64,000 nt of DNA, taken from a virus. A program made the position numbers and the translations under genes. This document shows positions 4,201 to 64,000 of this stretch, in pieces. The stretch is taken from UHGV virus genome UHGV-0129253. One strand, given 5' to 3'. The stretch's first letter is position 1, and every line of letters begins with the position of its first letter. The notes below the pieces were generated by a model. The model saw only the letters and a list, made by a program, of their open reading frames with translations, was not told where the DNA came from and searched no databases.

Positions 4201-4590
4201 ATGGGCTTCCCTTCTCCTGCGGCGGATTATGCTGAGAGCCGTATTTCTCTTGATCAGCAGATAATTAGACATCCTTCAGCGACCTACTTCATGAGGGCAG
4301 CTGATAGTCATCATCGTGAGGGAATATTACAGGGTGCATTGCTGGTGGTCGATTCCTCACTTACCCCGGTTGATGGTTCTCTGCTTGTATGCGCTCTGGA
4401 TGGGGAATATCGCGTAAAAAGATACCGGAAGTACCCACGTCAGCATCTGGAGGATTTAAGAACCGGTAAGAAGGAAGCATTGCCAAAGGATGACGATGGA
4501 TGCACGGGCAGCAATGCCGTGTTTGGTGTGATCACTCACATTATCAACGACGCAAGAAGTGGCGAGTTTGATGATTGTCCTGTGATGTAG
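4201..4590 (+). CDS. UmuD'-like SOS mutagenesis protein (S24 LexA-like peptidase fold), HumD-like pre-processed form
   Basis: MGFPSPAADY...HPSATYF... begins at the UmuD Cys24-Gly25 cleavage position; LexA box upstream; no umuC partner in window. Confidence 0.75.
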   Translation: MGFPSPAADYAESRISLDQQIIRHPSATYFMRAADSHHREGILQGALLVVDSSLTPVDGSLLVCALDGEYRVKRYRKYPRQHLEDLRTGKKEALPKDDDGCTGSNAVFGVITHIINDARSGEFDDCPVM

Positions 4591-4601
4591 GAGAACTGTT
4601 T

Positions 4602-4626
4602 AGGTGGTGCAATGCACCACCTTTTT
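4602..4626 (+). terminator. Hairpin AGGTGGTGCA-A-TGCACCACCT + TTTT between convergent humD-like and mrp
   Basis: 10-bp stem plus T-run. Confidence 0.55.
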
Positions 4627-4627
4627 A

Positions 4628-5728
4628 TCACACTGCGCGGAATGCGATTTCGCCAGGTATTACTTCACCTTGCCAATACATTTGGGCAGCAACGCGATCT
4701 GCGAGGTCACGATAAATAGCCGTAAATTCACTATCTGGACGACTAATAACGGTTGGTGTTCCGTTATCCAGATCTTCACGAAGAGAGATATGAAGTGGCA
4801 TTTGGCCTAACAACTGCGTGTTGTATTTCTCGGCCAGTTTCTGTGCGCCACCGGTGCCAAAAATTGGCTCGTGATGACCGCAGTTACTGCAAATATGCAC
4901 ACTCATGTTTTCGACGATACCCAGTACCGGCACTTCGACTTTTTCGAACATCACAATGCCTTTCTTCGCATCGATCAGCGCGATGTCTTGCGGCGTAGTT
5001 ACCACAACCGCACCAGTTACAGGAATGTTCTGCGCCAGCGTCAACTGAATATCACCAGTGCCCGGCGGCATATCGAGAACGAGATAGTCCAGATCAGGCC
5101 ATATAGTTTCCTGCAACATCTGCATCAGCGCCTTGCTGGCCATCGGTCCACGCCACACCATTGCATTGTCGTCGGTGACCAGATAACCAATAGAGTTGGT
5201 TGCCAGGCCATGAGACATGATAGGTGCCATGTGAGTACCGTCAGGTGAGGTTGGACGTTGGTTTTCCGCGCCCAGCATGGTTGGAATTGATGGACCATAG
5301 ATATCGGCATCCAAAATACCAACTTTCGCACCTTCAGCAGCCAACGCCAGTGCCAGGTTTACCGCCGTGGAGGATTTACCCACGCCGCCCTTGCCTGAGC
5401 TGACGGCGATAATGTTCTTAACGCCATTAATGCCTGGTTGGTTTTTGACGCGCTTAAGCGTGGCAATGTTGTACGACAGCTTCCAGTCAATAGCCTTTGC
5501 GCCAGTGATACGGAGCAGATCACCACTACATTGCTCTTTCAGGTCTTCAAAAGGCTTATTCCACACGAAAGGCATGATTAGTTCGACATGCAGTGTGTCA
5601 TCCATCAACGCAACATGGTGTAACGCTTTAAGCGTAGTCAGGTTGTGTTTCAGGGTTGGGTGCTGAAAATTAGCCAGCGTACCGGCTACCATTGCTCTCA
5701 GGGCATCCGGCGATTTGGACTCGCTCAT
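4628..5728 (-). CDS. mrp: Iron-sulfur cluster carrier ATPase Mrp/ApbC
   Basis: 366 aa, P-loop SSGKGGVGKS, near-full-length match to enterobacterial Mrp; divergent from metG as in E. coli. Confidence 0.9.
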   Translation of the reverse strand: MSESKSPDALRAMVAGTLANFQHPTLKHNLTTLKALHHVALMDDTLHVELIMPFVWNKPFEDLKEQCSGDLLRITGAKAIDWKLSYNIATLKRVKNQPGINGVKNIIAVSSGKGGVGKSSTAVNLALALAAEGAKVGILDADIYGPSIPTMLGAENQRPTSPDGTHMAPIMSHGLATNSIGYLVTDDNAMVWRGPMASKALMQMLQETIWPDLDYLVLDMPPGTGDIQLTLAQNIPVTGAVVVTTPQDIALIDAKKGIVMFEKVEVPVLGIVENMSVHICSNCGHHEPIFGTGGAQKLAEKYNTQLLGQMPLHISLREDLDNGTPTVISRPDSEFTAIYRDLADRVAAQMYWQGEVIPGEIAFRAV

Positions 5729-5885
5729 CCCGTCTCCTTTATTTTAATTTGCGCAATTGTCGCCTTGTAGTGTACTCCAGCTACGGCATTTAATCATTTA
5801 TGAGAAATGCTGTTATCACATGGCAGACATAAGGCCATTTTGTTACTATCAAGCCCCTTTTCACTACAAAGAAGTAATGCCTACT

Positions 5886-7919
5886 ATGACCCAAGTCGCG
5901 AAGAAAATTCTGGTGACGTGCGCGCTGCCGTACGCTAACGGCTCAATCCACCTCGGCCATATGCTGGAGCACATCCAGGCTGATGTCTGGGTTCGTTACC
6001 AGCGAATGCGCGGCCACGAGGTTAATTTCATCTGTGCCGACGATGCCCACGGTACGCCGATCATGCTGAAAGCGCAGCAGCTTGGTATCACACCGGAGCA
6101 GATGATTGGCGAAATGAGTCAGGAACACCAGACTGATTTCGCAGGCTTTAACATCAGCTATGACAACTATCACTCGACGCACAGCGAAGAGAACCGCCAG
6201 CTGTCTGAGCTTATCTATACTCGCCTGAAAGAGAACGGTTTTATTAAAAACCGCACTATCTCTCAGTTGTACGATCCGGAAAAAGGCATGTTCCTGCCGG
6301 ACCGTTTTGTAAAAGGCACCTGCCCGAAATGTAAAGCGCCAGATCAATACGGCGATAACTGTGAAGTCTGCGGCGCAACATATAGCCCGACTGAATTGAT
6401 CGAGCCGAAATCGGTGGTTTCTGGCGCTACCCCGGTAATGCGTGATTCTGAACACTTCTTCTTTGATCTACCCTCTTTCAGCGAAATGTTGCAGGCATGG
6501 ACCCGCAGCGGCGCGTTGCAGGAGCAGGTGGCGAACAAAATGCAGGAATGGTTTGAATCCGGCCTGCAACAGTGGGATATCTCCCGCGATGCGCCTTACT
6601 TCGGTTTTGAAATTCCGAACGCGCCGGGCAAATATTTCTACGTCTGGCTGGACGCGCCGATTGGCTACATGGGTTCCTTCAAGAATCTGTGCGACAAGCG
6701 CGGCGATACCACCAGCTTCGATGAATACTGGAAGAAAGACTCCACCGCCGAGCTGTACCACTTCATCGGTAAAGATATTGTTTACTTCCACAGCCTGTTC
6801 TGGCCTGCCATGCTGGAAGGCAGCAACTTCCGCAAGCCGACCAACCTGTTTGTTCACGGCTATGTGACGGTGAACGGCGCGAAGATGTCCAAGTCTCGCG
6901 GCACCTTTATTAAAGCCAGCACCTGGCTGAATCATTTTGACGCTGACAGCCTGCGTTACTACTACACTGCGAAACTCTCTTCGCGCATTGATGATATCGA
7001 TCTCAACCTGGAGGATTTCGTTCAGCGCGTGAATGCCGATATCGTGAACAAAGTGGTTAACCTGGCCTCTCGTAATGCAGGCTTTATCAACAAGCGTTTT
7101 GACGGCGTGCTGGCAGGCGAACTGGCTGACCCGCAACTGTACAAAACCTTTACTGATGCCGCTGAAGTGATTGGCGAAGCATGGGAAAGCCGCGAATTTG
7201 GTAAAGCTATCCGTGAAATCATGGCACTGGCTGACCTGGCTAACCGCTATGTCGATGAACAGGCTCCGTGGGTGGTGGCGAAGCAGGAAGGTCGCGATGC
7301 CGATCTGCAGGCGATTTGCTCTATGGGCATTAACCTGTTCCGCGTGCTGATGACTTACCTGAAACCGGTACTGCCGAAACTGACTGAACGTGCAGAAGCA
7401 TTCCTGAATACAGAACTGACCTGGGATGGTATCCAGCAACCGCTGCTGGGCCATAAAGTGAATCCGTTCAAGGCACTGTATAACCGTATCGATATGAAAC
7501 AGGTGGAAGCACTGGTGGAAGCATCCAAAGAAGAAGTGAAAGCCACAGCCGCACCGGTAACTGGCCCACTGGCTGACGACCCGATTCAGGAAACCATCAC
7601 CTTTGACGACTTCGCCAAAGTTGACCTGCGTGTGGCGCTGATTGAAAACGCGGAGTTTGTTGAAGGTTCTGACAAACTGTTGCGCCTGACGCTGGATCTC
7701 GGCGGTGAAAAACGCAATGTCTTCTCAGGCATCCGTTCTGCTTATCCAGACCCACAGGCACTGATTGGTCGTCACACCATTATGGTGGCTAACCTGGCTC
7801 CGCGTAAAATGCGCTTCGGTATCTCCGAAGGCATGGTGATGGCTGCTGGCCCCGGCGGGAAAGATATCTTCCTGTTAAGCCCGGATGTCGGTGCTAAACC
7901 TGGCCACCAGGTTAAGTAA
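5886..7919 (+). CDS. metG: Methionine--tRNA ligase
   Basis: 677 aa from ATG 5886 ([25 protein letters not shown]...); HIGH-type and KMSKS motifs; the ORF track's 5757 start is an upstream artefact. Confidence 0.95.
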
Positions 7920-16614: not shown

Positions 16615-17139
16615 TCAAAAAGGCAAAATTCGTTCAACCCAATCGAACAAAACAACTATTTTTCTACCGTTCTCGACACGTAGTGTAACCTGACAAGCAT
16701 CTGCGCCTGCTGACACCCCCTCAATTTCACGGCCATCCGCCATGTACACCCTTATAGATTTGTTTGCTTTGTAGGCTTGGTTGCAAATTGCAAAAAAATC
16801 GCGGCGTGATGGCCGATTATCGACATAATCAGGGTGAACTGTTAGTCGACCTTTGAAATCGTGAGCGATACTGTCAACCACACCTGATTCAATTGTACTA
16901 ATGCGTTCAAGTGGGAGCCTTATACGATTTTCTTTGTCAAAAGGGGCTGGGCAAAGGTCAACTTTGTTACGAGATGGCATGAGGCCATAAACGTACATGC
17001 AAAACGCCTGGCCATCTTCGAGAGTGACCCTTACAGGAATTTGTTCTCTGCGCCAGAACATCAGTAGTTTTTCAACGTTAGTGTAATCTCGCGGCCAGAG
17101 TTCAGCTTGGATACCGTAGGTAATATCTTTGGTTGTCAT
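16615..17139 (-). CDS. Hypothetical protein; start uncertain (alternative ATG at 17217 would overlap the upstream gene by 74 nt)
   Basis: ORF 16615-17217; internal ATG at 17139 lies 4 nt after the lipoprotein stop. Confidence 0.4.
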   Translation of the reverse strand: MTTKDITYGIQAELWPRDYTNVEKLLMFWRREQIPVRVTLEDGQAFCMYVYGLMPSRNKVDLCPAPFDKENRIRLPLERISTIESGVVDSIAHDFKGRLTVHPDYVDNRPSRRDFFAICNQAYKANKSIRVYMADGREIEGVSAGADACQVTLRVENGRKIVVLFDWVERILPF

Positions 17140-17143
17140 GTCA

Positions 17144-17566
17144 TCACAGAGTTGTTGGCAGAATGTCGATGTCACCAGAATTGCTGGTGAACACCCTGAA
17201 CGCTTTTGTGTCTCCATTCTTCAGAGTCGTTTCTCGCTCTTGACGAGCGGGGTTTAGAGCACATAAACCTGCACCTTCAAGAGATGCACCCACAATTAAT
17301 TCTCCGGCATTTAAATGGAAAGTCGCTTTTTCGCCTGTAGCCAGTTTTGCGACAGTTTCGCCATTGATGAAAATGGAAGCATCACATCCAGCTCCTACAA
17401 AACCTGCGTCTCTCATTACCACCAACGTAGCTGGCGCTGCGCTTTGATACTTGAACACTTTGGCCTGCGGTGCTGGTTTGGCGTCATGGATTGATATTGG
17501 ACGTGATTGGCACGCGGTAAGCATCAACACTGGTAACGTTAGTAGAGGGAGAAGCGAGTATTTCAT
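17144..17566 (-). CDS. Putative lipoprotein (lipobox LTAC); candidate superinfection-exclusion factor
   Basis: MKYSLLPLLTLPVLMLTAC signal/lipobox read directly. Confidence 0.5.
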   Translation of the reverse strand: MKYSLLPLLTLPVLMLTACQSRPISIHDAKPAPQAKVFKYQSAAPATLVVMRDAGFVGAGCDASIFINGETVAKLATGEKATFHLNAGELIVGASLEGAGLCALNPARQERETTLKNGDTKAFRVFTSNSGDIDILPTTL

Positions 17567-19520: not shown

Positions 19521-19540
19521 ATAAGTAAGTGATTACTTAG
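19521..19540. promoter_or_regulatory. Late-type motif ATAAGTAAGTGATTACTTAG in divergent promoter region
   Basis: First member of the (G)ATA(A/G)GTAAGTA...TACTTA family. Confidence 0.4.
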
Positions 19541-19557
19541 TGGATTGTAGCAATAAA

Positions 19558-20238
19558 ATGGATGTAAAAATCACGATTTTGCAGGTTGATGTTGCCAACC
19601 TTCGCCCGAATACCTGGAACACCAATTCGGTTGGTGCGCAGAATTTTGAAAAACTGAAAGGTTCTATCGAAAAATTGGGCTTTTTTAAGCCAATTTTGGC
19701 TCGTGAACTTGAAGATGGATTTTTTGAAATCCTCGGCGGTGAACATCGCTGGCGTGCTGCTATTGAGCAAGGAATTTCAACGGTTCCGGTGCTTTCTGTG
19801 GGCAAAATTAGCGATGTCGTAGCTAAACAGATGTCACTGGTGGACAACGAGCGATACGGTGAAGACGACCAAATCGCATTGCAACGCTTCATTGAAGAAA
19901 TTCAGTCAGAACTTGACTATCAACTGTCTGAAATCGCCCCGTATGACGACGAAATCTCGATGGTTTTAGCAAAAGAGGCGGCAATCGACCTTGAAGCACT
20001 GGAGGCATTGTCTCGTGGTAGTGATGAGCCTGTCGATACCGACAAACGAGAGAAAACCGAACGTGTGGGTGCGGAACATCAGACCATGCGCTTCAAAGTA
20101 ACTTTCGATGCGTCAGATCGTGTTGCAGAAACCATAAAAAACATCATCAAAGAGCAGGCTATTAACACCGGTAATGAAATGGAGAACGCTGGTGAGGCTC
20201 TGGTGTGGCTGGTCGACTACTACAAGGAGCGTATGTAA
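19558..20238 (+). CDS. ParB/Srx-fold (ParB N-terminal domain) protein 1
   Basis: GxxRxxA motif (EILGGEHRWRAA); start ATG 19558 (track gives GTG 19540). Confidence 0.6.
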   Translation: MDVKITILQVDVANLRPNTWNTNSVGAQNFEKLKGSIEKLGFFKPILARELEDGFFEILGGEHRWRAAIEQGISTVPVLSVGKISDVVAKQMSLVDNERYGEDDQIALQRFIEEIQSELDYQLSEIAPYDDEISMVLAKEAAIDLEALEALSRGSDEPVDTDKREKTERVGAEHQTMRFKVTFDASDRVAETIKNIIKEQAINTGNEMENAGEALVWLVDYYKERM

Positions 20239-20906
20239 TGACCAAAAAGTTTGAAATCGTATATCGCGACCCGGCAGATCTTATTCCCTATGAGATGAAT
20301 GCCAAAAAGCATGATGAACAGCAGATCCGAGATCTGGCCGCAGCCATTAAAAAGCGCGGATTTGACCAGCCAATTACGGTCGATAAGAACGACGTAATTA
20401 TTACTGGCCACGGCCGCCGTGAGGCTGCAATTTTTGCTGGACTTGAGCGCGTACCGGTTATTGTTCGTGATGATCTGAGTGATGACGAGGTACGTGCAAA
20501 GCGTCTTGAAGATAACCGACTTGCCAGCATTGATTACGATGCAATTAAGCTACAGAAAGAGCTTGAGTCGCTTGTTCTGGACGATATCGAGGTTTTCGGC
20601 TTTGAAGAGCGTGAGTTGAATGTTCTCGTTGGCAGTATGACAGAAGAAATGGACACCGACTCGCTAGTTATCGATCTTGGCGAAGAAACTAAACGACAGA
20701 AGGATGAACACACCGAGATCAGTCGTGAAGTTGCAGCGGAAGAAGTACGTGTTGTCGACGTATTGGGCTTTAAAACGCTCCCTGCTGGCTCTGCCATTGT
20801 TGTTGGTGATTTGCTTGCCCATATGGAAGAAATGACGGGAGAAAGCGGGGTAGACGCATTTGTGGCATATGCGGAGAAGATCTCTTCCGGGGAGATGGCT
20901 GCATGA
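20238..20906 (+). CDS. ParB/Srx-fold (ParB N-terminal domain) protein 2
   Basis: ITGHGRREAA motif; start overlaps upstream stop. Confidence 0.6.
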   Translation: MTKKFEIVYRDPADLIPYEMNAKKHDEQQIRDLAAAIKKRGFDQPITVDKNDVIITGHGRREAAIFAGLERVPVIVRDDLSDDEVRAKRLEDNRLASIDYDAIKLQKELESLVLDDIEVFGFEERELNVLVGSMTEEMDTDSLVIDLGEETKRQKDEHTEISREVAAEEVRVVDVLGFKTLPAGSAIVVGDLLAHMEEMTGESGVDAFVAYAEKISSGEMAA

Positions 20907-21568
20907 GCAAATACATCATCAACGTATCGTTTCAGACACGCGTAAATAAAACCACGCGCACGTTGGAAATCGCTGAGTCGTTCGGGCTTGGCCTGGACGA
21001 AAAAGAGTGGACGCTTTACGACAATCTGGAGCTGGAAGTGAAGCAGGGCGATGTGGTGTACATCACCGGCCAATCCGGTTCCGGCAAATCCGTTGTGCTG
21101 CGCGAGTTGCAACGACAGATGAAGGATGAAGGGCTGTCTGTAGCCTCCATCGATGATTTTACCTTCGATAATGAGGTTAACGTCATCGATCAGTTGGGCA
21201 AAACGACCAGTGATGCGCTTGGGTTGTTATCTATGGCTGGTCTGAACGATGCATATCTGTTTGTTCGCAAGCCTTCTGAAATGTCAGACGGCCAGAAATA
21301 TCGTCTCAAGATTGCCAAACTGATTGAGTCAGGCGCTAAAGTGTGGGCTGCTGACGAGTTCGGCGCTGTTCTCGACCGTGTAACCGCTCAGGTTGTGGCG
21401 TCTAACCTCCAGCGTGCCGCTCGAAAGGTTGGTGCGACGGTAATGGTGGCGACGACTCACGAAGACCTGAAGAACGCGCTGCGCCCTGATATGCAGATCA
21501 CCAAGCACTACAAAGAACGCGTGAAGGTGGAATATCACAATGGTAGTCATGATGAGGTCCATTCATGA
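20903..21568 (+). CDS. ABC-type ATPase (stand-alone nucleotide-binding domain)
   Basis: Walker A GQSGSGKS, signature-like SDGQKYRL, Walker B VWAADEF, H-loop ATTHED; ATGA overlap. Confidence 0.65.
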   Translation: MSKYIINVSFQTRVNKTTRTLEIAESFGLGLDEKEWTLYDNLELEVKQGDVVYITGQSGSGKSVVLRELQRQMKDEGLSVASIDDFTFDNEVNVIDQLGKTTSDALGLLSMAGLNDAYLFVRKPSEMSDGQKYRLKIAKLIESGAKVWAADEFGAVLDRVTAQVVASNLQRAARKVGATVMVATTHEDLKNALRPDMQITKHYKERVKVEYHNGSHDEVHS

Positions 21569-22755: not shown

Positions 22756-22810
22756 CCTGCTTCTGTATATATAAATAATAAGTAACTTATTAAATATATA
22801 CGGAAGCAGG
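22756..22810. repeat. 55-bp AT-rich long hairpin CCTGCTTCTGTATATATAAATAATAAGTAACTTATTAAATATATACGGAAGCAGG, copy 1
   Basis: Identical copy at 55785-55839. Confidence 0.6.
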
Positions 22811-22846: not shown

Positions 22847-22861
22847 GAAAACAAGTTGGTT
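22847..22861. promoter_or_regulatory. Early-type half-palindrome GAAAACAAGTTGGTT
   Basis: Upstream of TerS-like gene. Confidence 0.3.
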
Positions 22862-22872
22862 AGCAGATGCAG

Positions 22873-22888
22873 TAAACAAGTTGTTTTA
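22873..22888. promoter_or_regulatory. Early-type palindrome TAAACAAGTTGTTTTA
   Basis: ~40 nt upstream of ATG 22927. Confidence 0.35.
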
Positions 22889-22926
22889 GAGCGCATGGAC
22901 GCGCTCTGTGTGTTTTAGAGGGATCT

Positions 22927-52707: not shown

Positions 52708-53229
52708 TTATTCTTCGAACAATTTTTCGATAGATTTTGTTGGATAGAACAAAGAACGATCGTTGTTACCAACCAGCTGGATAAAGCCCAAACTTTTATA
52801 AAACGCCCTGGCTTTATCGTTCAACGCCTCAACGAAAAGCCCATGAATGCCTACCGCAAGAGATGCATTGTACACAACACGCATTGCGTGAGTTACAAGC
52901 ATTGAGCCAAGCCCCTGACCTTGAAGAGATTTGTCCAAAGCCAGTCTGCCTAAAGTGATACTTGGGACATTCCGATAAGGCACTTTCTTTTGCTGACTCT
53001 TTGAAGGTAAGGTTTCTTTCTCAAAGCAGCTGCCTGACAAAGTGTAATAACCTAATACCTTTGGTATTTCTTCTTTAGTGCAAAGCACATAAGCGCGAAG
53101 AATTTTTCCTTCATGCTGTCTTTTTAAGTGGTTGGTCAAAAATGCGTTTAGTGACTCTTCGCCGCAATCAAAACCGTTTAGATCATAATCGTTCTCTCCA
53201 GAGAAAATCTCGATCGTCGTATTGCTCAC
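52708..53229 (-). CDS. GNAT-family toxin (TacT/AtaT/KacT-like type II TA toxin)
   Basis: 173 aa GNAT; paired with upstream DUF1778-type antitoxin. Confidence 0.75.
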   Translation of the reverse strand: MSNTTIEIFSGENDYDLNGFDCGEESLNAFLTNHLKRQHEGKILRAYVLCTKEEIPKVLGYYTLSGSCFEKETLPSKSQQKKVPYRNVPSITLGRLALDKSLQGQGLGSMLVTHAMRVVYNASLAVGIHGLFVEALNDKARAFYKSLGFIQLVGNNDRSLFYPTKSIEKLFEE

Positions 53230-53236
53230 GAGTAAA

Positions 53237-53506
53237 TTACTCCATGCTTTTCAGACGATTGGCAGCTCGTTTCAGCTTGTCGTTCGGTGCCGGAGGATTG
53301 CTTATAGCATCCATAACCAGATTCCAGGACTCTTCACTTAGAACCAGTCTACGGTGTTGCTCTATCACCTTCACGGCACGTTCGGATGCACTGCTAACCA
53401 TGAACTGGGTAATGCTCTGGTTAGACATTGCGGCAGCTTCCTCGATGATGCTTTTATCGTCATCGGTTAATCTCAAATCGATGCGCTGCTTTTTCAGTGC
53501 GGACAT
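53237..53506 (-). CDS. DUF1778 / RHH antitoxin (TacA/AtaR-like)
   Basis: 89 aa, 7 nt upstream of the GNAT gene on the same strand. Confidence 0.75.
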   Translation of the reverse strand: MSALKKQRIDLRLTDDDKSIIEEAAAMSNQSITQFMVSSASERAVKVIEQHRRLVLSEESWNLVMDAISNPPAPNDKLKRAANRLKSME

Positions 53507-53775
53507 GTGTACCCCCTGATGGCCGGTGATGTAGGAAGGCCATCATTGCTCTCTATTTAAACTGAGTTTTCGACTCAAAGGTTATTTAACTGGGCTATAG
53601 CCCATTGCGTATGTGTCATCAAATTGTGTACGGCAATTTACCGTACTCGTAATATAGAGATGATTGTCACTTTTTTCAACAGACAAATGAAAACAGTTAC
53701 TAGCAATAGGCAATAACAACCTACTAAATAACCTTTACACCGCAGCCGTAGGCATTTAGGCTATATCACATATAA

Positions 53776-53791
53776 GAAAACAAGTTGTTTC
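53776..53791. promoter_or_regulatory. Early-type palindrome GAAAACAAGTTGTTTC upstream of the ParA-like gene
   Basis: 35 nt upstream of ATG 53826, followed by GATAAT. Confidence 0.4.
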
Positions 53792-53825: not shown

Positions 53826-54494
53826 ATGACCAAGATCTTTGTGGTTGGCGGCACAAAGGGCGGGCCTGGCAAATCCACTGTTGCCCAGCAAATTGCCGTT
53901 TGCCTGAAAGTCAAAAAGAAGAAGAAGGTTTATATCACTGATATAGATATTCAGCGCACGACAACAAGCTGGTGTGAAGACCGTAGACAGAACGAAGACC
54001 TTGAGCTGATTCCTTTTGCATACGTTCAGGATGACATCATTAAGCACCTAAAATCGCTTCAGGGTAGAGCTGAGTTTGTAGTGGTAGATGCTGGTGGCTT
54101 TGACTCCGAAATTCAGCGACAAGCGATGCTGATGGCCGACGTTATCATTATCCCGCTTCGTCCCAAGCGTCGTGATTTGAAATCTCTGCGTGACATTGAT
54201 CCTATTATCGACAATGTTCGTAATGTAAACGATAAAGTGAAGGTCCGCGCGGTCATGAACCAGTGCCCGGCTTTGCCATCACAAGTGTCTCGCATTCTGG
54301 CGGCTAAAGAGATTGTTGAGACGTTTGGCATCGAGTCTGCGCCAGTCAATTTATATAACCGCAACGTCTATGATGATGCGGAAGAGTCTGGTCGTTCTAT
54401 CTTTGAAATGACCGGTAGCGAGCGCGACAAAAAGGCGGAAGCCGAGTTTGAAGAATTTGTAGATTATCTGTTGAGTCTGGAGGAAGAAGAATAA
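53826..54494 (+). CDS. ParA/ParF-type partition ATPase
   Basis: Deviant Walker A GGTKGGPGKST; 222 aa. Confidence 0.8.
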   Translation: MTKIFVVGGTKGGPGKSTVAQQIAVCLKVKKKKKVYITDIDIQRTTTSWCEDRRQNEDLELIPFAYVQDDIIKHLKSLQGRAEFVVVDAGGFDSEIQRQAMLMADVIIIPLRPKRRDLKSLRDIDPIIDNVRNVNDKVKVRAVMNQCPALPSQVSRILAAKEIVETFGIESAPVNLYNRNVYDDAEESGRSIFEMTGSERDKKAEAEFEEFVDYLLSLEEEE

Positions 54495-54853
54495 TGTCCA
54501 TGAAAATGGGTGACCTAGCAAAGCGCAAAGAGCCTGATGCACCGGCCAAGAACACAACTCCTTTGCGCCAACCAGTCAGACCACAGGGACGCCCGACTCG
54601 TGGCAAAGAGAAAATTAAAAGCCGCACAATGTCACTGGAGGACGAATACTTCGAACTGCTGGAAATGATGAAGTTCATCCCTCGTTTCGAGAAGTTCACC
54701 CGTTCTGACGTGATTCGCGCAGCCATTTTCCATCTGGCAGAGAAGTCACCGCAGGAAATCGAGGACATCGTGAAATTGAATGAGGCGATCACCGCTGCCG
54801 ATGTCACGATGCGTACCGATGAAATCAAACGAGAGTTGATGAAGAAAGGTTAA
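54494..54853 (+). CDS. Putative partition partner (ParG/ParB-like, basic N-terminus)
   Basis: 119 aa, start overlapping ParA-like stop. Confidence 0.5.
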   Translation: MSMKMGDLAKRKEPDAPAKNTTPLRQPVRPQGRPTRGKEKIKSRTMSLEDEYFELLEMMKFIPRFEKFTRSDVIRAAIFHLAEKSPQEIEDIVKLNEAITAADVTMRTDEIKRELMKKG

Positions 54854-54858
54854 AAATC

Positions 54859-54889
54859 ATGCATTGGCGCGTACATTGCGCCAATGCAT
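54859..54889. terminator. Perfect palindrome ATGCATTGGCGC-gtacatt-GCGCCAATGCAT between convergent genes
   Basis: 12-bp arms; bidirectional terminator or centromere-like site. Confidence 0.45.
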
Positions 54890-54905
54890 AACTACAGTGT
54901 CAGCT

Positions 54906-55673
54906 TTATGCCGCGCTAACACTATGTTCAGTCCTAACCACCCCAACCTTCACAAAAGGGCTACCGTAGCTTGGTGGCTTCTTGATTAATTTGCCTACAT
55001 ACAGTTTTCTAATATGCTCATCGGCTATTCTGCCAACAAATTCATAACGTTTTGTGTCGGGGCCAAGAGCTATATCCCTTGTAAAGTACTGCTGAGAACC
55101 GGCTTTGACCCAGCATTCAATCTGATAAACTTCCATTATTAGCCCACCATATGTAGCGTAGGCATATTTGAGATTCTCGTCTCTTGGAACCTTTGCCCAT
55201 ACGCCACGCGTAGCTTCATATAATGCCAGAGCGGACATTCCTGACTTGTAGGTGCTGTTTAGCAGGAAGGCAAGACCGGCGTGCTCAGGAGCAATTTCAG
55301 TTTCCTCTTGCAGCACTAAGTGATGGTAGGCGTCCAGTGATATTCTGCCCATCATGGAACCACTTCCTCGTACCTTATTCGTAAGCTCTCCGACCCCCAT
55401 AAGGTCGATGCATGTCGCCTCAACAAGTTTGGCTGTGGTTTCATCCATACCATGACGAAGAATATCTATGCCTAATTTTTTATTAGCCAAAAGTTCTTTG
55501 ATCCGCATGGATTTGGGAGAGTCATCGGGATACTTGATGTGATCGAGACAACGAGTCGATTTGCCTTTTCCTATGTAAAACGGTCTTTTCATCTTGTCTT
55601 CTGTATCATAGAGGCAGTAAACATAGTATTTAGCCTTATCCAATGATCTCGCGTATACCGATAAATCGTCCAT
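54906..55673 (-). CDS. GIY-YIG nuclease-domain protein
   Basis: N-terminal YYVYCLYD...RPFYIGKGKSTR motif; 255 aa. Confidence 0.6.
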   Translation of the reverse strand: MDDLSVYARSLDKAKYYVYCLYDTEDKMKRPFYIGKGKSTRCLDHIKYPDDSPKSMRIKELLANKKLGIDILRHGMDETTAKLVEATCIDLMGVGELTNKVRGSGSMMGRISLDAYHHLVLQEETEIAPEHAGLAFLLNSTYKSGMSALALYEATRGVWAKVPRDENLKYAYATYGGLIMEVYQIECWVKAGSQQYFTRDIALGPDTKRYEFVGRIADEHIRKLYVGKLIKKPPSYGSPFVKVGVVRTEHSVSAA

Positions 55674-55784
55674 TATTGCATCTCTTTGCTACTGACTAAT
55701 GCGTTCTATTTTACACATAAGTTTTTAATCAATTTAACAGGCTCAAAGTGTAGAGCTTCTGGGCGTCTAAGACGACAAGTTATG

Positions 55785-55839
55785 CCTGCTTCTGTATATA
55801 TAAATAATAAGTAACTTATTAAATATATACGGAAGCAGG
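55785..55839. repeat. 55-bp AT-rich long hairpin, copy 2 (identical to 22756-22810)
   Basis: Exact repeat read directly. Confidence 0.6.
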
Positions 55840-55922
55840 TCTTTTAAAAGACACCACCAGAACAACTCCCTTCCGTTTCCACTTCCAAAAACTGCCACCA
55901 GTCGCTATCATCCGCTCATCGT

Positions 55923-56739: not shown

Positions 56740-58080
56740 ATGACCGAACTTTGCCATACAGGACGCGGGCTGTCCGAAGAGTTTGATGAAGATTTTCAGA
56801 ACAGATTGACGGCCTATTTTTGTCGTGATCACGAGTTTCTTACTCGTGCTGGAGATCTGGTTGTACCTAGCCAATTTGCCAATGCGGCCAATGCCATATT
56901 GGTTAATATGGTTTCGGGCTATTACCGTATGTACAAGAGCGCGCCCTCTTCATCTGCGATTCTGGATATGCTTAAGCGTGCGAAACGCGATAAGACTATC
57001 CGTGAGGAACTATTCGCCGATGTTGTTGCTGCGTTTAAGCGCATCCTTGCAGAAAAATTGTCTGATACCTCGTACATGGTTGACCAGGTATCAACCTTCG
57101 CAAAAAGCGTAGCGTTTGATGATGCTCTGATTAAGGCTGCTGAACTGAAAGAGAAAGGCGACTTTCAGGGGGCGATGGCAATCATGGCCAAGGTTCAGCA
57201 GATTGGATCGAACGAAGCGACCGGAATCTATGACTACTACACCTCCGCAAGTGAGCGATTGAAAGCGCGTGAATATGAGGCTTCAGAGGAGTATGTACCA
57301 AACAGTATTACAACTGGACTCCCTCTTCTCGATAGGTTGCTGTACCAAAAAGGCTGGGCAAAGCGCGAAATGGTGCTCTTCATGGGGTTCGCTAAATCCG
57401 GTAAATCGACCGCAATGGGTGAGTTTTCCATAAACGCAACGCTTGCTGGCTACAATGTTCTGTATCTCTCGCTGGAGGTTCACACCACCATTTTATCCGA
57501 CCGTTTTGATGCAAGATTGTCGGAGACAGAAATGTCCAAGCTGGTGGAACGGCGCGATGAGGTTCATCGTAAGTTGGCAGAGTTGGGAGCCACGAAGGGG
57601 ATTGGTAGTTTGTGGGTTGTTGAGCGTCCGTCAGGAAGTATGTCACCGGCAGATCTGGATCGTATGCTTAACAGCATGAAAGCCAATGGCATGGTGCCTG
57701 ACATGGTTGTTGTCGACTATGCAGATTTGATGCGTGCCAGTTATGACCTTCGTGATGATCGCGCCAACATACGTAGTATCTATACCGACTTACGTGCTCT
57801 TTATGACAAACACAACGTTGCTGGTATCACAGCATCGCAAACAAACCGTGAAGGTGGCGCGTCAGAAGTTGCCACAATGATGCACGCTGCCGACAACATC
57901 GAAAAAGTACGTATTGCTGACCTGGTAATAACGATCAACAAAACCGAAGAAGAAGAAGCGAAAGGAGAGGCTCGTCTCTACTTTGCTGGTTCACGTAACC
58001 AGCAGGGAGGGATCAGCATTCGCGTTAAACAAAACCTCGAACAAATGCGCTTCATTGAGCGAATCTTAGACGTTACCTAA
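56740..58080 (+). CDS. DnaB-family replicative helicase
   Basis: Walker A GFAKSGKST, Walker B VVVDYADLM, SQTNRE motif. Confidence 0.7.
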   Translation: MTELCHTGRGLSEEFDEDFQNRLTAYFCRDHEFLTRAGDLVVPSQFANAANAILVNMVSGYYRMYKSAPSSSAILDMLKRAKRDKTIREELFADVVAAFKRILAEKLSDTSYMVDQVSTFAKSVAFDDALIKAAELKEKGDFQGAMAIMAKVQQIGSNEATGIYDYYTSASERLKAREYEASEEYVPNSITTGLPLLDRLLYQKGWAKREMVLFMGFAKSGKSTAMGEFSINATLAGYNVLYLSLEVHTTILSDRFDARLSETEMSKLVERRDEVHRKLAELGATKGIGSLWVVERPSGSMSPADLDRMLNSMKANGMVPDMVVVDYADLMRASYDLRDDRANIRSIYTDLRALYDKHNVAGITASQTNREGGASEVATMMHAADNIEKVRIADLVITINKTEEEEAKGEARLYFAGSRNQQGGISIRVKQNLEQMRFIERILDVT

Positions 58081-63944: not shown

Positions 63945-64000
63945 ATGAATGCACAGGCTGATGTGCCGCAACTACAGTAGTGCGCGCTTTGCGGGGCTTG

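What the first reader, a model, noticed from the sequence alone, without database searches (positions are those of the whole stretch)
53826..54889. ParF/ParG-like partition pair with adjacent perfect 12-bp-arm palindrome and no integrase in the window
A small deviant-Walker-A ATPase plus a 119-aa partner, a TA module, a replication module (helicase, primase, ligase) and the absence of any recognisable integrase or excisionase in 64 kb suggest a phage-plasmid lifestyle. The palindrome ATGCATTGGCGC...GCGCCAATGCAT downstream could be a terminator or a centromere-like site.
Basis: partly seen in the sequence, partly recalled or inferred. Interest (0 to 1): 0.55.

Follow-up and report, generated by a model that had tools for sequence, protein, structure and literature searches.

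The report
Partition operon of an SSU5-type phage-plasmid
This is the plasmid-partition operon of a well-known kind of E. coli phage that lives as a low-copy plasmid; the neighbouring palindrome is only the transcription terminator of an inserted cargo gene, not a centromere.

Summary
All three observed features are real. They are a 222-aa deviant-Walker-A ATPase (53826-54494), a translationally coupled 119-aa gene (54494-54853), and a perfect 12-nt-arm palindrome (54859-54889).

The window is a piece of an SSU5/pHCM2-type phage-plasmid of E. coli. The par locus is 100% identical to the circular 112-kb plasmid pM-199-4197. It occurs in 264 of 5,426 complete E. coli genomes, always on plasmids and never on a chromosome.

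The ATPase is ParF-like. The partner belongs to a tiny orphan family that looks ribbon-helix-helix-like, but this is unproven.

The palindrome travels with the opposite-strand GIY-YIG gene, not with par. It is present in 29-30 of 30 related loci that carry that gene and in none of the 59 that lack it. On the minus strand it is followed by UUUUU. It is therefore that gene's intrinsic terminator, not a centromere.

The par operon sits between two variable cargo slots. It ends at a conserved 55-nt hairpin (55785-55839).

Its promoter carries a 16-nt element found at about 19 promoters of the element.

The centromere itself remains unidentified.

Relatives carry an integrase-family gene about 2 kb beyond the window, so "no integrase" was not the right argument. 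The phage-plasmid conclusion is nevertheless correct, and it is already known.

The parts
53734..53762 (+). Putative par promoter: -35 TTTACA (53734-53739), 17-nt spacer, -10-like TAGGCT (53757-53762). The spacer contains the boxes GTAGGC (53748) and TTAGGC (53756).
   Evidence: Read from the sequence. The core is nearly invariant in 52 unique upstream sequences from 89 loci. TTTACA-17-TAGGCT, with GCCGTAGGC, is also kept in the distant relative L216. The promoter scan did not list it, because it fails that scan's 9-of-12 threshold. The assignment is an inference.
53775..53790 (+). 16-nt element AGAAAACAAGTTGTTT, with palindromic core AAACAA-N-TTGTTT. It lies about 13-15 nt after the -10 and 35 nt before the parA ATG. 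It is one copy of a family spread across the whole element.
   Evidence: 30 strand-hits (16 sites) in the window against 3.0 expected; 0 of 100 shuffles reach that number. Position relative to start codons. Conserved at par in L010, L011 and L218, but absent in L215-L217.
53826..54494 (+). parA: a small ParF-like (type Ib) deviant-Walker-A partition ATPase, 222 aa.
   Evidence: Pfam MipZ/AAA_31/CbiA. The best solved relatives are ParF 4dzz and ParA 5u1g, E 1.2e-10, aligned over residues 9-199. NCBIfam ParA_partition E 1.9e-33, below its cut-off. PHROG 164 'ParA-like partition protein'.
54494..54853 (+). 119-aa partner, presumed centromere-binding adaptor. It has a conserved N-terminal MGDLAKR, a basic PQGRPTRGK arm, and then IKSRTMSLEDE...FTRSDVIRAAI, a ribbon-helix-helix-like pattern.
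   Evidence: Start overlaps the parA stop. PHROG 5111, unknown function. No Pfam or PDB sequence hit. Only 18 representatives among 1.84 billion proteins, and those whose context was read all sit next to a ParA. Weak hints of a ribbon-helix-helix fold. Transcribed with parA in lysogens.
54853..54893 (-). Intrinsic terminator of the GIY-YIG gene. On the minus strand, the hairpin made by the 12-nt-arm palindrome (core 54859-54889) is followed by GAUUUUUA. This run is the A-tract 54852-54856, which overlaps the stop codon of the 119-aa gene.
   Evidence: Minus-strand RNA: 16-bp stem, -25.1 kcal/mol, z -4.5, then the U-tract. The plus strand has no U-tract. The palindrome co-occurs with the GIY-YIG gene and is absent from the 59 par loci without it. 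In L087 the loop differs but the arms and the A-tract are kept.
54906..55673 (-). GIY-YIG (LEM-3-like) cargo gene that occupies the variable slot between the 119-aa gene and the par terminator.
   Evidence: Pfam PF22945 E 5.5e-7; PHROG 5356. Present in 30 of 89 related loci. Cyrano and SSU5 carry other genes in this slot.
55785..55845 (+). Conserved 55-nt inverted repeat (CCTGCTTCTGTATATAT...ATATATACGGAAGCAGG) followed by TCTTTT. Probably the terminator of the par transcription unit. An identical copy lies at 22756-22810.
   Evidence: Plus-strand hairpin -30.2 kcal/mol, z -7.1. Found in 86 of the records held, and in nearly all variants the T-run follows. G.U wobbles favour the plus strand. 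In the empty-slot locus L048 it lies 36 nt after the stop codon. In Cyrano, transcript level falls from 54.6 to 6.2 across it.
52708..53506 (-). TacA/TacT-type (DUF1778 + GNAT) toxin-antitoxin cassette in the variable slot upstream of par. Its own promoter and GTACGG-N7-CCGTAC palindrome lie at 53628-53679.
   Evidence: Pfam. Minus-strand promoter TTGAAA/17/TATATT. The cassette is present in 45 of 87 loci and absent in 42 that have the same par genes. It is highly expressed in Cyrano lysogens.

Best explanation
The locus is the active-partition operon of an SSU5/pHCM2-type phage-plasmid.

A weak sigma-70-type promoter (TTTACA-17-TAGGCT) drives a bicistronic, translationally coupled operon. The first gene encodes a small ParF-like Walker ATPase. 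The second encodes a 119-aa adaptor.

By analogy with type Ib systems, the adaptor would work in three ways (all inferred, not shown):
- it dimerises and binds DNA through a central ribbon-helix-helix-like segment flanked by a basic arm;
- it stimulates the ATPase through its conserved, disordered N-terminus;
- it thereby couples plasmid copies to the nucleoid-bound ATPase.

The operon lies between two hotspots for cargo genes. In this window the upstream slot holds TacAT and the downstream slot holds a GIY-YIG gene. The operon ends at a conserved 55-nt hairpin terminator.

The 12-nt-arm palindrome is the Rho-independent terminator of the convergent GIY-YIG gene. It stops antisense transcription from entering par. 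It is not part of the partition machinery.

The centromere has not been located. The best candidate is the invariant promoter core, about 60 nt long, upstream of parA.
For: Shown by tools:
- Identity with known phage-plasmids.
- Exclusively plasmid location in 264 complete genomes.
- Full-length similarity of the ATPase to ParF, with the Walker A, DxDxQ and Walker B motifs aligned.
- Gene overlap TAATG.
- Synteny: ParA and the small partner are adjacent at every partner locus that includes the upstream flank (89 of 90), and also in relatives with only 30-40% identity.
- The palindrome tracks the GIY-YIG gene: 29 exact plus 1 variant out of 30 loci with the gene, and 0 of 59 without it.
- The palindrome has a minus-strand hairpin plus U-tract.
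- The 55-nt hairpin plus T-run lies directly after par in empty-slot loci.

From the literature (PMC9928086). Cyrano's ParA and 119-aa proteins are identical to the window's.
- Cyrano is kept at 5.5 copies per cell.
- In lysogens ParA reads 49.8, the 119-aa gene 89.1 and the slot gene 54.6, against a background of 9.8.
- The level drops to 6.2 after the hairpin.
- RepA, the repressor and the integrase are also on.

Inferred, not shown: the DNA-binding mode, ATPase stimulation, and the position of the centromere.
Against: - No iterated repeat array typical of type Ib centromeres was found near par.
- The ATPase scores below NCBIfam's ParA_partition cut-off (115.7 against 180 bits).
- No partition or stability experiment on this system was found in the papers searched.
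Confidence: 0.85

Rival explanations
1. The 12-nt-arm palindrome is the centromere, or an operator, of the ParA/119-aa system.
For: It lies 6 nt after the stop codon of the 119-aa gene, is perfectly symmetrical, and is unique in the window. Some par systems have their centromere downstream.
Against: 59 related loci lack it, many of them with 100% identical ParA and 119-aa proteins. It is present only where the GIY-YIG gene is present. Homology with Cyrano, SSU5 and the Klebsiella relatives stops exactly at the stop codon. It has the anatomy of a minus-strand terminator.
Confidence: 0.03
2. The 119-aa protein binds the 16-nt element AGAAAACAA-N-TTGTTT, both at its own promoter and at about 19 other promoters. 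It would then act as a global repressor, and the dispersed sites would act as centromeres, as with SopB sites in N15 or KorB sites in RK2.
For: The element is a perfect copy at the par promoter. It is enriched about ten-fold in the window. It is kept at par in relatives with 33-61% identical partner proteins: L010, L011 and L218. Type Ib adaptors normally autoregulate. A GRP-containing basic arm next to a ribbon could fit a CAA-N-TTG core flanked by A/T tracts; this is inference only.
Against: - Three distant lineages keep ParA and the partner but have no such element upstream of parA or anywhere in the 3.8-7.7 kb read. Two of them (L215, L216) keep the same SRT strand residues; the third is L217.
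- In Cyrano lysogens par is on, while other element-bearing genes (helicase, primase, nrdB) are near background. This speaks against one shared repressor setting all of them.
- The element is oriented and sits in 5' leaders next to ribosome-binding sites.
- Another candidate binder exists: the FljA-like protein.
Confidence: 0.1
3. The 119-aa protein is a RelE/ParE-type toxin, as annotated in the Cyrano record, and the pair is not a partition system.
For: Only the annotation of CYRAN_29.
Against: - No match to any toxin family in Pfam, NCBIfam or PDB.
- It always follows a ParA-type ATPase, and their reading frames overlap.
- It has a disordered basic N-terminus.
- A separate, genuine TA pair lies next door.
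Confidence: 0.02
4. The real partner of the ATPase is one of the two ParB_N-domain proteins encoded about 33 kb away (19540-20906), and the 119-aa protein has another role.
For: ParB_N-domain genes exist in the element. One of them is used as the 'parB' marker for SSU5-type elements.
Against: - They are unlinked to parA and sit with an ABC ATPase upstream of the packaging genes.
- They are silent in Cyrano lysogens (5.0 and 9.5 against a background of 9.8), while ParA and the 119-aa gene are on.
- pMT1 keeps them although it uses its own P1-type ParAB.
Confidence: 0.04

Closest known systems
ParF/ParG of plasmid TP228 (type Ib partition)
   Same: - A small Walker ATPase without an N-terminal DNA-binding domain. 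ParF is the best solved match, aligned over its whole length.
- A small downstream partner with a flexible basic N-terminus.
- Transcription as one operon.
   Different: - The partner has no detectable sequence similarity to ParG (hhalign probability 0.1%).
- It is longer (119 against 76 aa) and has two extra C-terminal helices.
- No array of short boxes like parH was found upstream.
SegA/SegB of Sulfolobus, and the delta/omega pair of pSM19035 (ParA plus a ribbon-helix-helix adaptor)
Partition systems of the phage-plasmids P1 (ParAB-parS) and N15 (SopAB with four dispersed centromeres)
   Same: A temperate phage maintained as a low-copy plasmid by a ParA-type system. N15 is the precedent for centromere sites scattered among phage promoters.
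   Different: P1 and N15 use type Ia systems: a large ParA with an HTH, and a ParB with a ParB_N domain. This one is type Ib-like. Its centromere is unknown.
SSU5 / pHCM2 / Cyrano (pLF82) phage-plasmids
   Same: The same element family and the same locus: 86-100% DNA identity across par. ParA is already annotated in SSU5 (SSU5_033) and Cyrano (CYRAN_28).
   Different: This window carries a GIY-YIG gene in the slot after par, where Cyrano and SSU5 carry other genes. SSU5 has other genes instead of TacAT upstream of parA.

Membership tests
Type Ib (ParF-like) partition ATPase | Deviant Walker A, KGGxxGK[ST], with the signature N-terminal lysine | tested here: met
   GTKGGPGKST at residues 9-18. 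It aligns to ParF's KGGSGKTT.
Type Ib (ParF-like) partition ATPase | Small size (about 200-230 aa) with no N-terminal HTH domain, and similarity to ParF along the whole length | tested here: met
   222 aa. Residues 9-199 align to ParF residues 8-189, E 1.2e-10. The DxDxQ and hhhhD(A/G)G motifs align.
Type Ib (ParF-like) partition ATPase | Reaches the curated cut-off of NCBIfam NF041546 'ParA family partition ATPase' | tested here: not met
   115.7 bits against a cut-off of 180, although E is 1.9e-33 and the alignment covers the full profile. It is a divergent member.
Type Ib (ParF-like) partition ATPase | ATP-dependent dimerisation, non-specific DNA binding, and ATPase stimulation by the partner | not testable with these tools
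   Biochemistry is needed.
ParG-type ribbon-helix-helix centromere-binding protein | A small gene immediately downstream of parA, co-transcribed with it | tested here: met
   TAATG overlap. Conserved synteny: 89 of 90 partner loci, plus distant lineages. Similar transcript levels in Cyrano.
ParG-type ribbon-helix-helix centromere-binding protein | Ribbon-helix-helix fold | tested here: inconclusive
   For:
- the sequence pattern IKSRTMSLEDE...FTRSDVIRAAI;
- NCBIfam aCcr1 (a ribbon-helix-helix family), E 2.3e-4, below its cut-off;

Against:
- no Pfam hit;
- Foldseek found nothing;
- the pLDDT-85 monomer model gives only generic helical hits.

A dimer model could not be run.
ParG-type ribbon-helix-helix centromere-binding protein | Sequence homology to ParG | tested here: not met
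   hhalign probability 0.1%.
ParG-type ribbon-helix-helix centromere-binding protein | Binds an array of short repeats at or upstream of the par promoter (centromere and operator) | tested here: inconclusive
   No array was found. What exists is an invariant promoter core with two TAGGC boxes and one palindromic element. Binding cannot be tested here.
SSU5-supergroup phage-plasmid | Backbone homology to SSU5/pHCM2 (structural, lysis and replication genes) | tested here: met
   The window aligns to pM-199-4197 at about 96-99% over most of its length.
SSU5-supergroup phage-plasmid | Extrachromosomal maintenance with a plasmid replicon | tested here: met
   265 of 265 places are on plasmids in complete E. 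coli genomes. Relatives are circular, carry the IncFIB replicon, and have a RepA gene that lies outside the window. Cyrano is kept at 5.5 copies per cell. The replicon state of this particular contig cannot be seen from the window.
Rho-independent terminator (for the 12-nt-arm palindrome) | A stable GC-containing hairpin immediately followed by a U-tract, just downstream of a stop codon | tested here: met
   Minus strand: the GIY-YIG stop codon at 54906, a hairpin of -25.1 kcal/mol, then GAUUUUUA. The simple scan did not list it. Termination itself was not measured.
Partition centromere (for the 12-nt-arm palindrome) | Co-inherited with the partition genes | tested here: not met
   Absent from 59 of 89 loci that encode the partner protein, including many where both Par proteins are 100% identical to the window's.

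The most novel reading that the evidence does not exclude
The orphan 119-aa adaptor recognises the 16-nt element AGAAAACAA-N-TTGTTT. A perfect copy marks the par promoter, and about 19 further copies mark promoters and leaders around the 112-kb element. Partition and genome-wide gene control of the phage-plasmid would then be carried out by one small protein acting on dispersed sites. This would be a type Ib counterpart of N15 SopB or RK2 KorB.
Probability: 0.1. Interest if true: 0.65.

Novelty: new member of a known kind. Interest (0 to 1): 0.3.

Why it matters
SSU5-type phage-plasmids sit in about 5% of complete E. coli genomes. They carry resistance genes such as blaCTX-M. How they are partitioned has not been studied experimentally, as far as the papers searched show.

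This analysis establishes four things.
- It fixes the operon's boundaries.
- It corrects the annotation of the partner gene, which is called a RelE/ParE toxin in Cyrano.
- It removes a false centromere candidate.
- It shows that the par operon is flanked by two cargo hotspots, whose genes can ride on lysogen-active transcription.

The lifestyle inference itself is already textbook for this family, so the finding as stated is ordinary.

Tried and rejected
1. pMT1 of Yersinia pestis as a natural experiment. It lacks ParA and the 119-aa gene yet keeps the 13-mer palindrome at 6 sites and one copy of the 55-nt repeat. I first read this as evidence that the element is independent of par. I rejected the test as inconclusive: from memory of the literature, pMT1 is very close to pHCM2, which has the pair, so the loss may be recent.

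2. A scan of IMG/VR for the exact 16-mer. It returned mostly single chance hits plus SSU5-like contigs, so it was uninformative.

3. A search for FljA-like genes in other phage groups, to test the link between regulator and motif independently. Only SSU5-type phages have one.

4. Fold evidence for ribbon-helix-helix:
- Foldseek against the PDB found nothing.
- Profile searches of the PDB found nothing.
- hhalign against ParG was negative.
- The second, better model gave generic hits.

5. Tandem-repeat and repeat searches for a centromere array. None was found.

6. The 55-nt inverted repeat as a centromere. I considered this because the window holds two identical copies and the repeat is conserved downstream of par. 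Four observations favour a terminator instead: its T-run, its plus-strand G.U wobbles, its position at operon ends, and the nine-fold transcript drop across it in Cyrano. pMT1 keeps one copy without this par system.

7. One literature search was badly framed and returned nothing useful.
Full report
**Observation.**
The three features are present as described.
- ORF 53826-54494 (+) encodes 222 aa with the deviant Walker A GTKGGPGKST.
- ORF 54494-54853 (+) encodes 119 aa. It starts inside the overlap TAATG.
- The arms ATGCATTGGCGC and GCGCCAATGCAT lie at 54859-54870 and 54878-54889. They are perfectly complementary and 7 nt apart. The exact 12-mer occurs nowhere else in the window.

- A DUF1778/TacA antitoxin and a GNAT toxin lie on the minus strand at 52708-53506.
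- A DnaB-like helicase lies at 56740-58080. It is followed by the primase homologue and an ATP-dependent ligase.

**What the element is.**
The region matches Salmonella phage SSU5 (86%), Escherichia phage Cyrano (95%) and 724 plasmid records. It is 100% identical to the circular 112,469-bp IncFIB plasmid pM-199-4197.

The window aligns to the stretches of that plasmid that I compared. Window position 1 corresponds to about plasmid 89425, and position 64000 to plasmid 22830. Identity is about 96-99%, apart from a few replaced segments, one stretch I did not fetch, and an ISEcp1-blaCTX-M insertion that the window lacks.

SSU5-type elements are a defined supergroup of phage-plasmids (PMC7969092).

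In 5,426 complete E. coli genomes the par locus occurs in 264. All 265 copies are on plasmids and none is on a chromosome.

Cyrano is plasmid pLF82. It is kept at 5.5 copies per cell and forms siphovirus particles (PMC9928086). Its ParA and 119-aa proteins are identical to those of the window.

**The two proteins.**
The ATPase matches Pfam MipZ/AAA_31/CbiA and PHROG 164 'ParA-like partition protein'. Its closest solved relatives are ParF of TP228 and a ParA (5u1g), aligned from residue 9 to 199. The Walker A, DxDxQ and Walker B motifs are in register. It falls below the NCBIfam ParA_partition cut-off, so it is a divergent member.

The partner has no Pfam, NCBIfam-level or PDB sequence match.

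Its family is very small. There are 25 clusters in 5.8 billion sequences, and 18 representatives in 1.84 billion. In every partner locus that includes the upstream flank (89 of 90), and in lineages with only 30-40% identity whose context I fetched, the gene follows a ParA gene. The same tail-fibre, lysis and par synteny is kept.

Three segments are conserved:
- an N-terminal MGDLAK(R/K);
- a basic PQGRPTRGK arm;
- IKSRTMS-EDE...FTRSDVIRAAI, which reads like the strand, helix A and helix B of a ribbon-helix-helix protein.

The fold evidence is weak and mixed.
- There is a sub-threshold match to the aCcr1 family.
- The better monomer model (pLDDT 84.8) is four helices with only generic matches.
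- hhalign against ParG is negative.

I therefore call it a type Ib-style adaptor. The ribbon-helix-helix fold is likely but unproven.

**The palindrome.**
I compared 90 related loci from IMG/VR, GTDB genomes, phages and plasmids.
- The exact palindrome is present in 29 of the 30 loci that carry the GIY-YIG gene. The thirtieth has a loop variant with the same arms.
- It is present in none of the 59 loci that lack the gene. Many of those encode ParA and partner proteins 100% identical to the window's.
- Homology to Cyrano, SSU5 and the Klebsiella relatives ends exactly at the stop codon of the 119-aa gene.

On the minus strand the palindrome forms a 16-bp stem (-25.1 kcal/mol, z -4.5). It begins 13-17 nt after the GIY-YIG stop codon and is followed by GAUUUUUA. 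On the plus strand no U-tract follows.

It is therefore the intrinsic terminator of the convergent cargo gene. It would stop antisense transcription from running into par. The centromere reading is contradicted by its distribution.

**Operon boundaries and cargo slots.**
Downstream of the variable slot, nearly all loci share a 55-nt inverted repeat (55785-55839), usually followed by TCTTTT. Four observations point to a terminator.
- Its plus-strand hairpin is -30.2 kcal/mol.
- Arm variants create G.U pairs on the plus strand only.
- In the empty-slot locus L048 it lies 36 nt after the stop codon.
- In Cyrano the normalised transcript level falls from 54.6 (slot gene) to 6.2 (next gene) across it.

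I take it as the terminator of the par transcription unit. An identical copy lies at 22756-22810, ahead of the packaging operon. A third lies elsewhere on the related plasmid.

The distance from the partner gene's stop codon to the start of the next conserved gene takes many values, from about 190 to about 2,200 nt. The slot upstream of the par promoter holds TacAT variants in 45 of 87 loci and something else in 42.

So par is flanked by two cargo hotspots.

**Promoter and the 16-nt element.**
Only about 100 nt upstream of parA are conserved in all relatives. Their core is nearly invariant: TTTACA, 17 nt, TAGGCT, then AGAAAACAAGTTGTTT.

The palindromic part of that last element is not specific to par. 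With up to 2 mismatches it gives 30 strand-hits (16 sites) in the window against 3.0 expected, and 0 of 100 shuffles reach that number. Further copies lie on the rest of the plasmid.

At up to one mismatch there are 19 copies. Fourteen of them are oriented with AGA on the 5' side and lie 4-40 nt upstream of a start codon, about 16-18 nt after a -10-like hexamer. Among the genes preceded by the element are the helicase, nrdB, a TerB-like gene and many small early genes. A weaker two-mismatch copy precedes the primase.

Who binds it is open.
- Against the 119-aa protein: three distant lineages keep the ParA-partner pair, two of them with the same SRT strand residues, yet have no such element upstream of parA. 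In Cyrano lysogens par is expressed while the helicase, primase and nrdB are near background.
- A concrete alternative is the FljA-like protein encoded at 16615-17217 (Pfam PF03614, E 2.5e-84). FljA blocks translation of fliC mRNA (PMC2652032). The E. coli fliC leader contains CAAGTTGT 14 nt before its ribosome-binding site, which is the same core as the element.

This is a lead, not a result.

**Centromere.**
I found no repeat array of the kind known for type Ib centromeres. The invariant promoter core is the best remaining candidate. Its GTAGGC and TTAGGC boxes are partly kept in L010, L011 and L216. This is inference only.

**Integrase and lifestyle.**
The window has no integrase. The related complete plasmid does carry a Phage_integrase-family gene overlapping an HTH regulator, about 2.2 kb past the window's right end. 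So do pMT1 and Cyrano (CYRAN_44 and CYRAN_45).

This does not argue for integration, since all copies are plasmid-borne. By analogy with Cre of P1, the enzyme probably resolves dimers. That is my inference.

In Cyrano lysogens the genes above the background of 9.8 include the following:

| Gene | Normalised level |
|---|---|
| RepA | 133 |
| Repressor | 95.8 |
| Integrase | 49.5 |
| ParA | 49.8 |
| 119-aa gene | 89.1 |
| TA modules | well above background |

The two ParB_N-domain genes, which are used elsewhere as 'parB' markers, are silent at 5.0 and 9.5. That argues they are not the partition adaptor.

**Comparison and novelty.**
The system works like a type Ib ParA system (TP228 ParF/ParG, pSM19035 delta/omega, SegAB).
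- The ATPase passes the membership tests I could run, except one curated score cut-off.
- The partner passes the tests on position and coupling, fails sequence homology to ParG, and is undecided on fold.

The phage-plasmid lifestyle is already known for this family, and ParA is already annotated in SSU5 and Cyrano. These points are new but modest:
- the identification of the partner as an orphan adaptor family, mis-annotated as a RelE/ParE toxin in Cyrano;
- the operon map with two cargo slots and a shared hairpin terminator;
- the reassignment of the palindrome.

The dispersed 16-nt element is the most interesting by-product and deserves its own follow-up.

Noticed in passing
window 1082, 8004, 8055, 9495, 10691, 11069, 11553, 12456, 13206, 13691, 16650, 22849, 22874, 53778, 56708, 58123 (start of each 13-mer): An oriented 16-nt element, AGAAAACAA-N-TTGTTT, occurs at about 16 sites in the window and at 5 more on the rest of the related plasmid. 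That is roughly ten times the chance expectation. Most copies lie in 5' leaders, 4-40 nt before a start codon and 16-18 nt after a -10-like hexamer. It looks like the operator of an unknown regulon that covers the whole element.
   Followed up: partly
window 16615-17217 (-): A 200-aa protein with a full-length match to Pfam 'Repressor of phase-1 flagellin' (FljA), E 2.5e-84. It is kept in SSU5, Cyrano, the Klebsiella relatives and, by position, pMT1. The E. coli fliC leader carries CAAGTTGT, the core of the 16-nt element, 14 nt before its ribosome-binding site. This protein is therefore a candidate binder of the element.
   Followed up: partly
window 22756-22810 and 55785-55839: Two identical copies of a 55-nt AT-rich inverted repeat with conserved arms CCTGCTTCYGTATA. 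A third copy lies on the related plasmid near 96,030, and one is kept in pMT1. Each sits at an operon boundary. They are probably strong hairpin terminators, but conservation of the arm sequence across distant relatives is unusual for terminators.
   Followed up: partly
window 22849-22916: The leader of the packaging operon has two copies of the 13-mer palindrome 25 nt apart. They are followed by a terminator-like hairpin, AGAGCGC-N6-GCGCTCT plus GTGTGTTTT, just before the small terminase gene (22927). This resembles a late operon controlled by antitermination.
   Followed up: no
window 54854-55784: The gap between the 119-aa gene and the 55-nt hairpin is a cargo hotspot. The distance from the stop codon to the next conserved gene takes many values, from about 190 nt (empty) to about 2,200 nt, among 88 loci. 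In this window it holds a GIY-YIG (LEM-3-like) gene with its own terminator. In Cyrano the slot gene is transcribed at par-operon level in lysogens.
   Followed up: partly
window 53577-53588 and 53725-53736; 53628-53646: A perfect 12-nt inverted repeat, AAAGGTTATTTA/TAAATAACCTTT, brackets the TacAT promoter region. My rough estimate is that such a pair is very unlikely by chance in 320 nt. It is seen only in this cassette variant and is unexplained. Inside it, GTACGG-N7-CCGTAC is conserved among TacAT variants and is probably the TacA operator.
   Followed up: no
window 4201-7919: A methionyl-tRNA synthetase gene (metG, 5757-7919), an ApbC/Mrp-like ATPase gene (4628-5728, minus) and an S24 peptidase gene (4201-4590) lie inside the phage-plasmid. 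They are plasmid-borne in the listed relatives. In Cyrano lysogens the S24 and ApbC-like genes are expressed, while metG is near background.
   Followed up: partly
window 19540-21568: Two adjacent ParB_N-domain genes plus an ABC-type ATPase gene lie upstream of the packaging genes. They are silent in Cyrano lysogens, so they probably belong to the lytic programme rather than to partition. One of them is used in surveillance as the SSU5 'parB' marker.
   Followed up: partly
L002 (Cyrano) 4992-5351: The Cyrano record annotates the 119-aa partner gene (CYRAN_29) as a 'RelE/ParE putative toxin', and a paper counts it as a moron toxin. No toxin family matches it. The name probably arose from confusion between Par (partition) and ParE.
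   Followed up: yes
L006, L010, L011: Metagenome-assembled genomes labelled Bacillota, Candidatus Fimivivens and Sphingobacterium contain contigs with this enterobacterial phage-plasmid locus. These are most likely binning errors.
   Followed up: no
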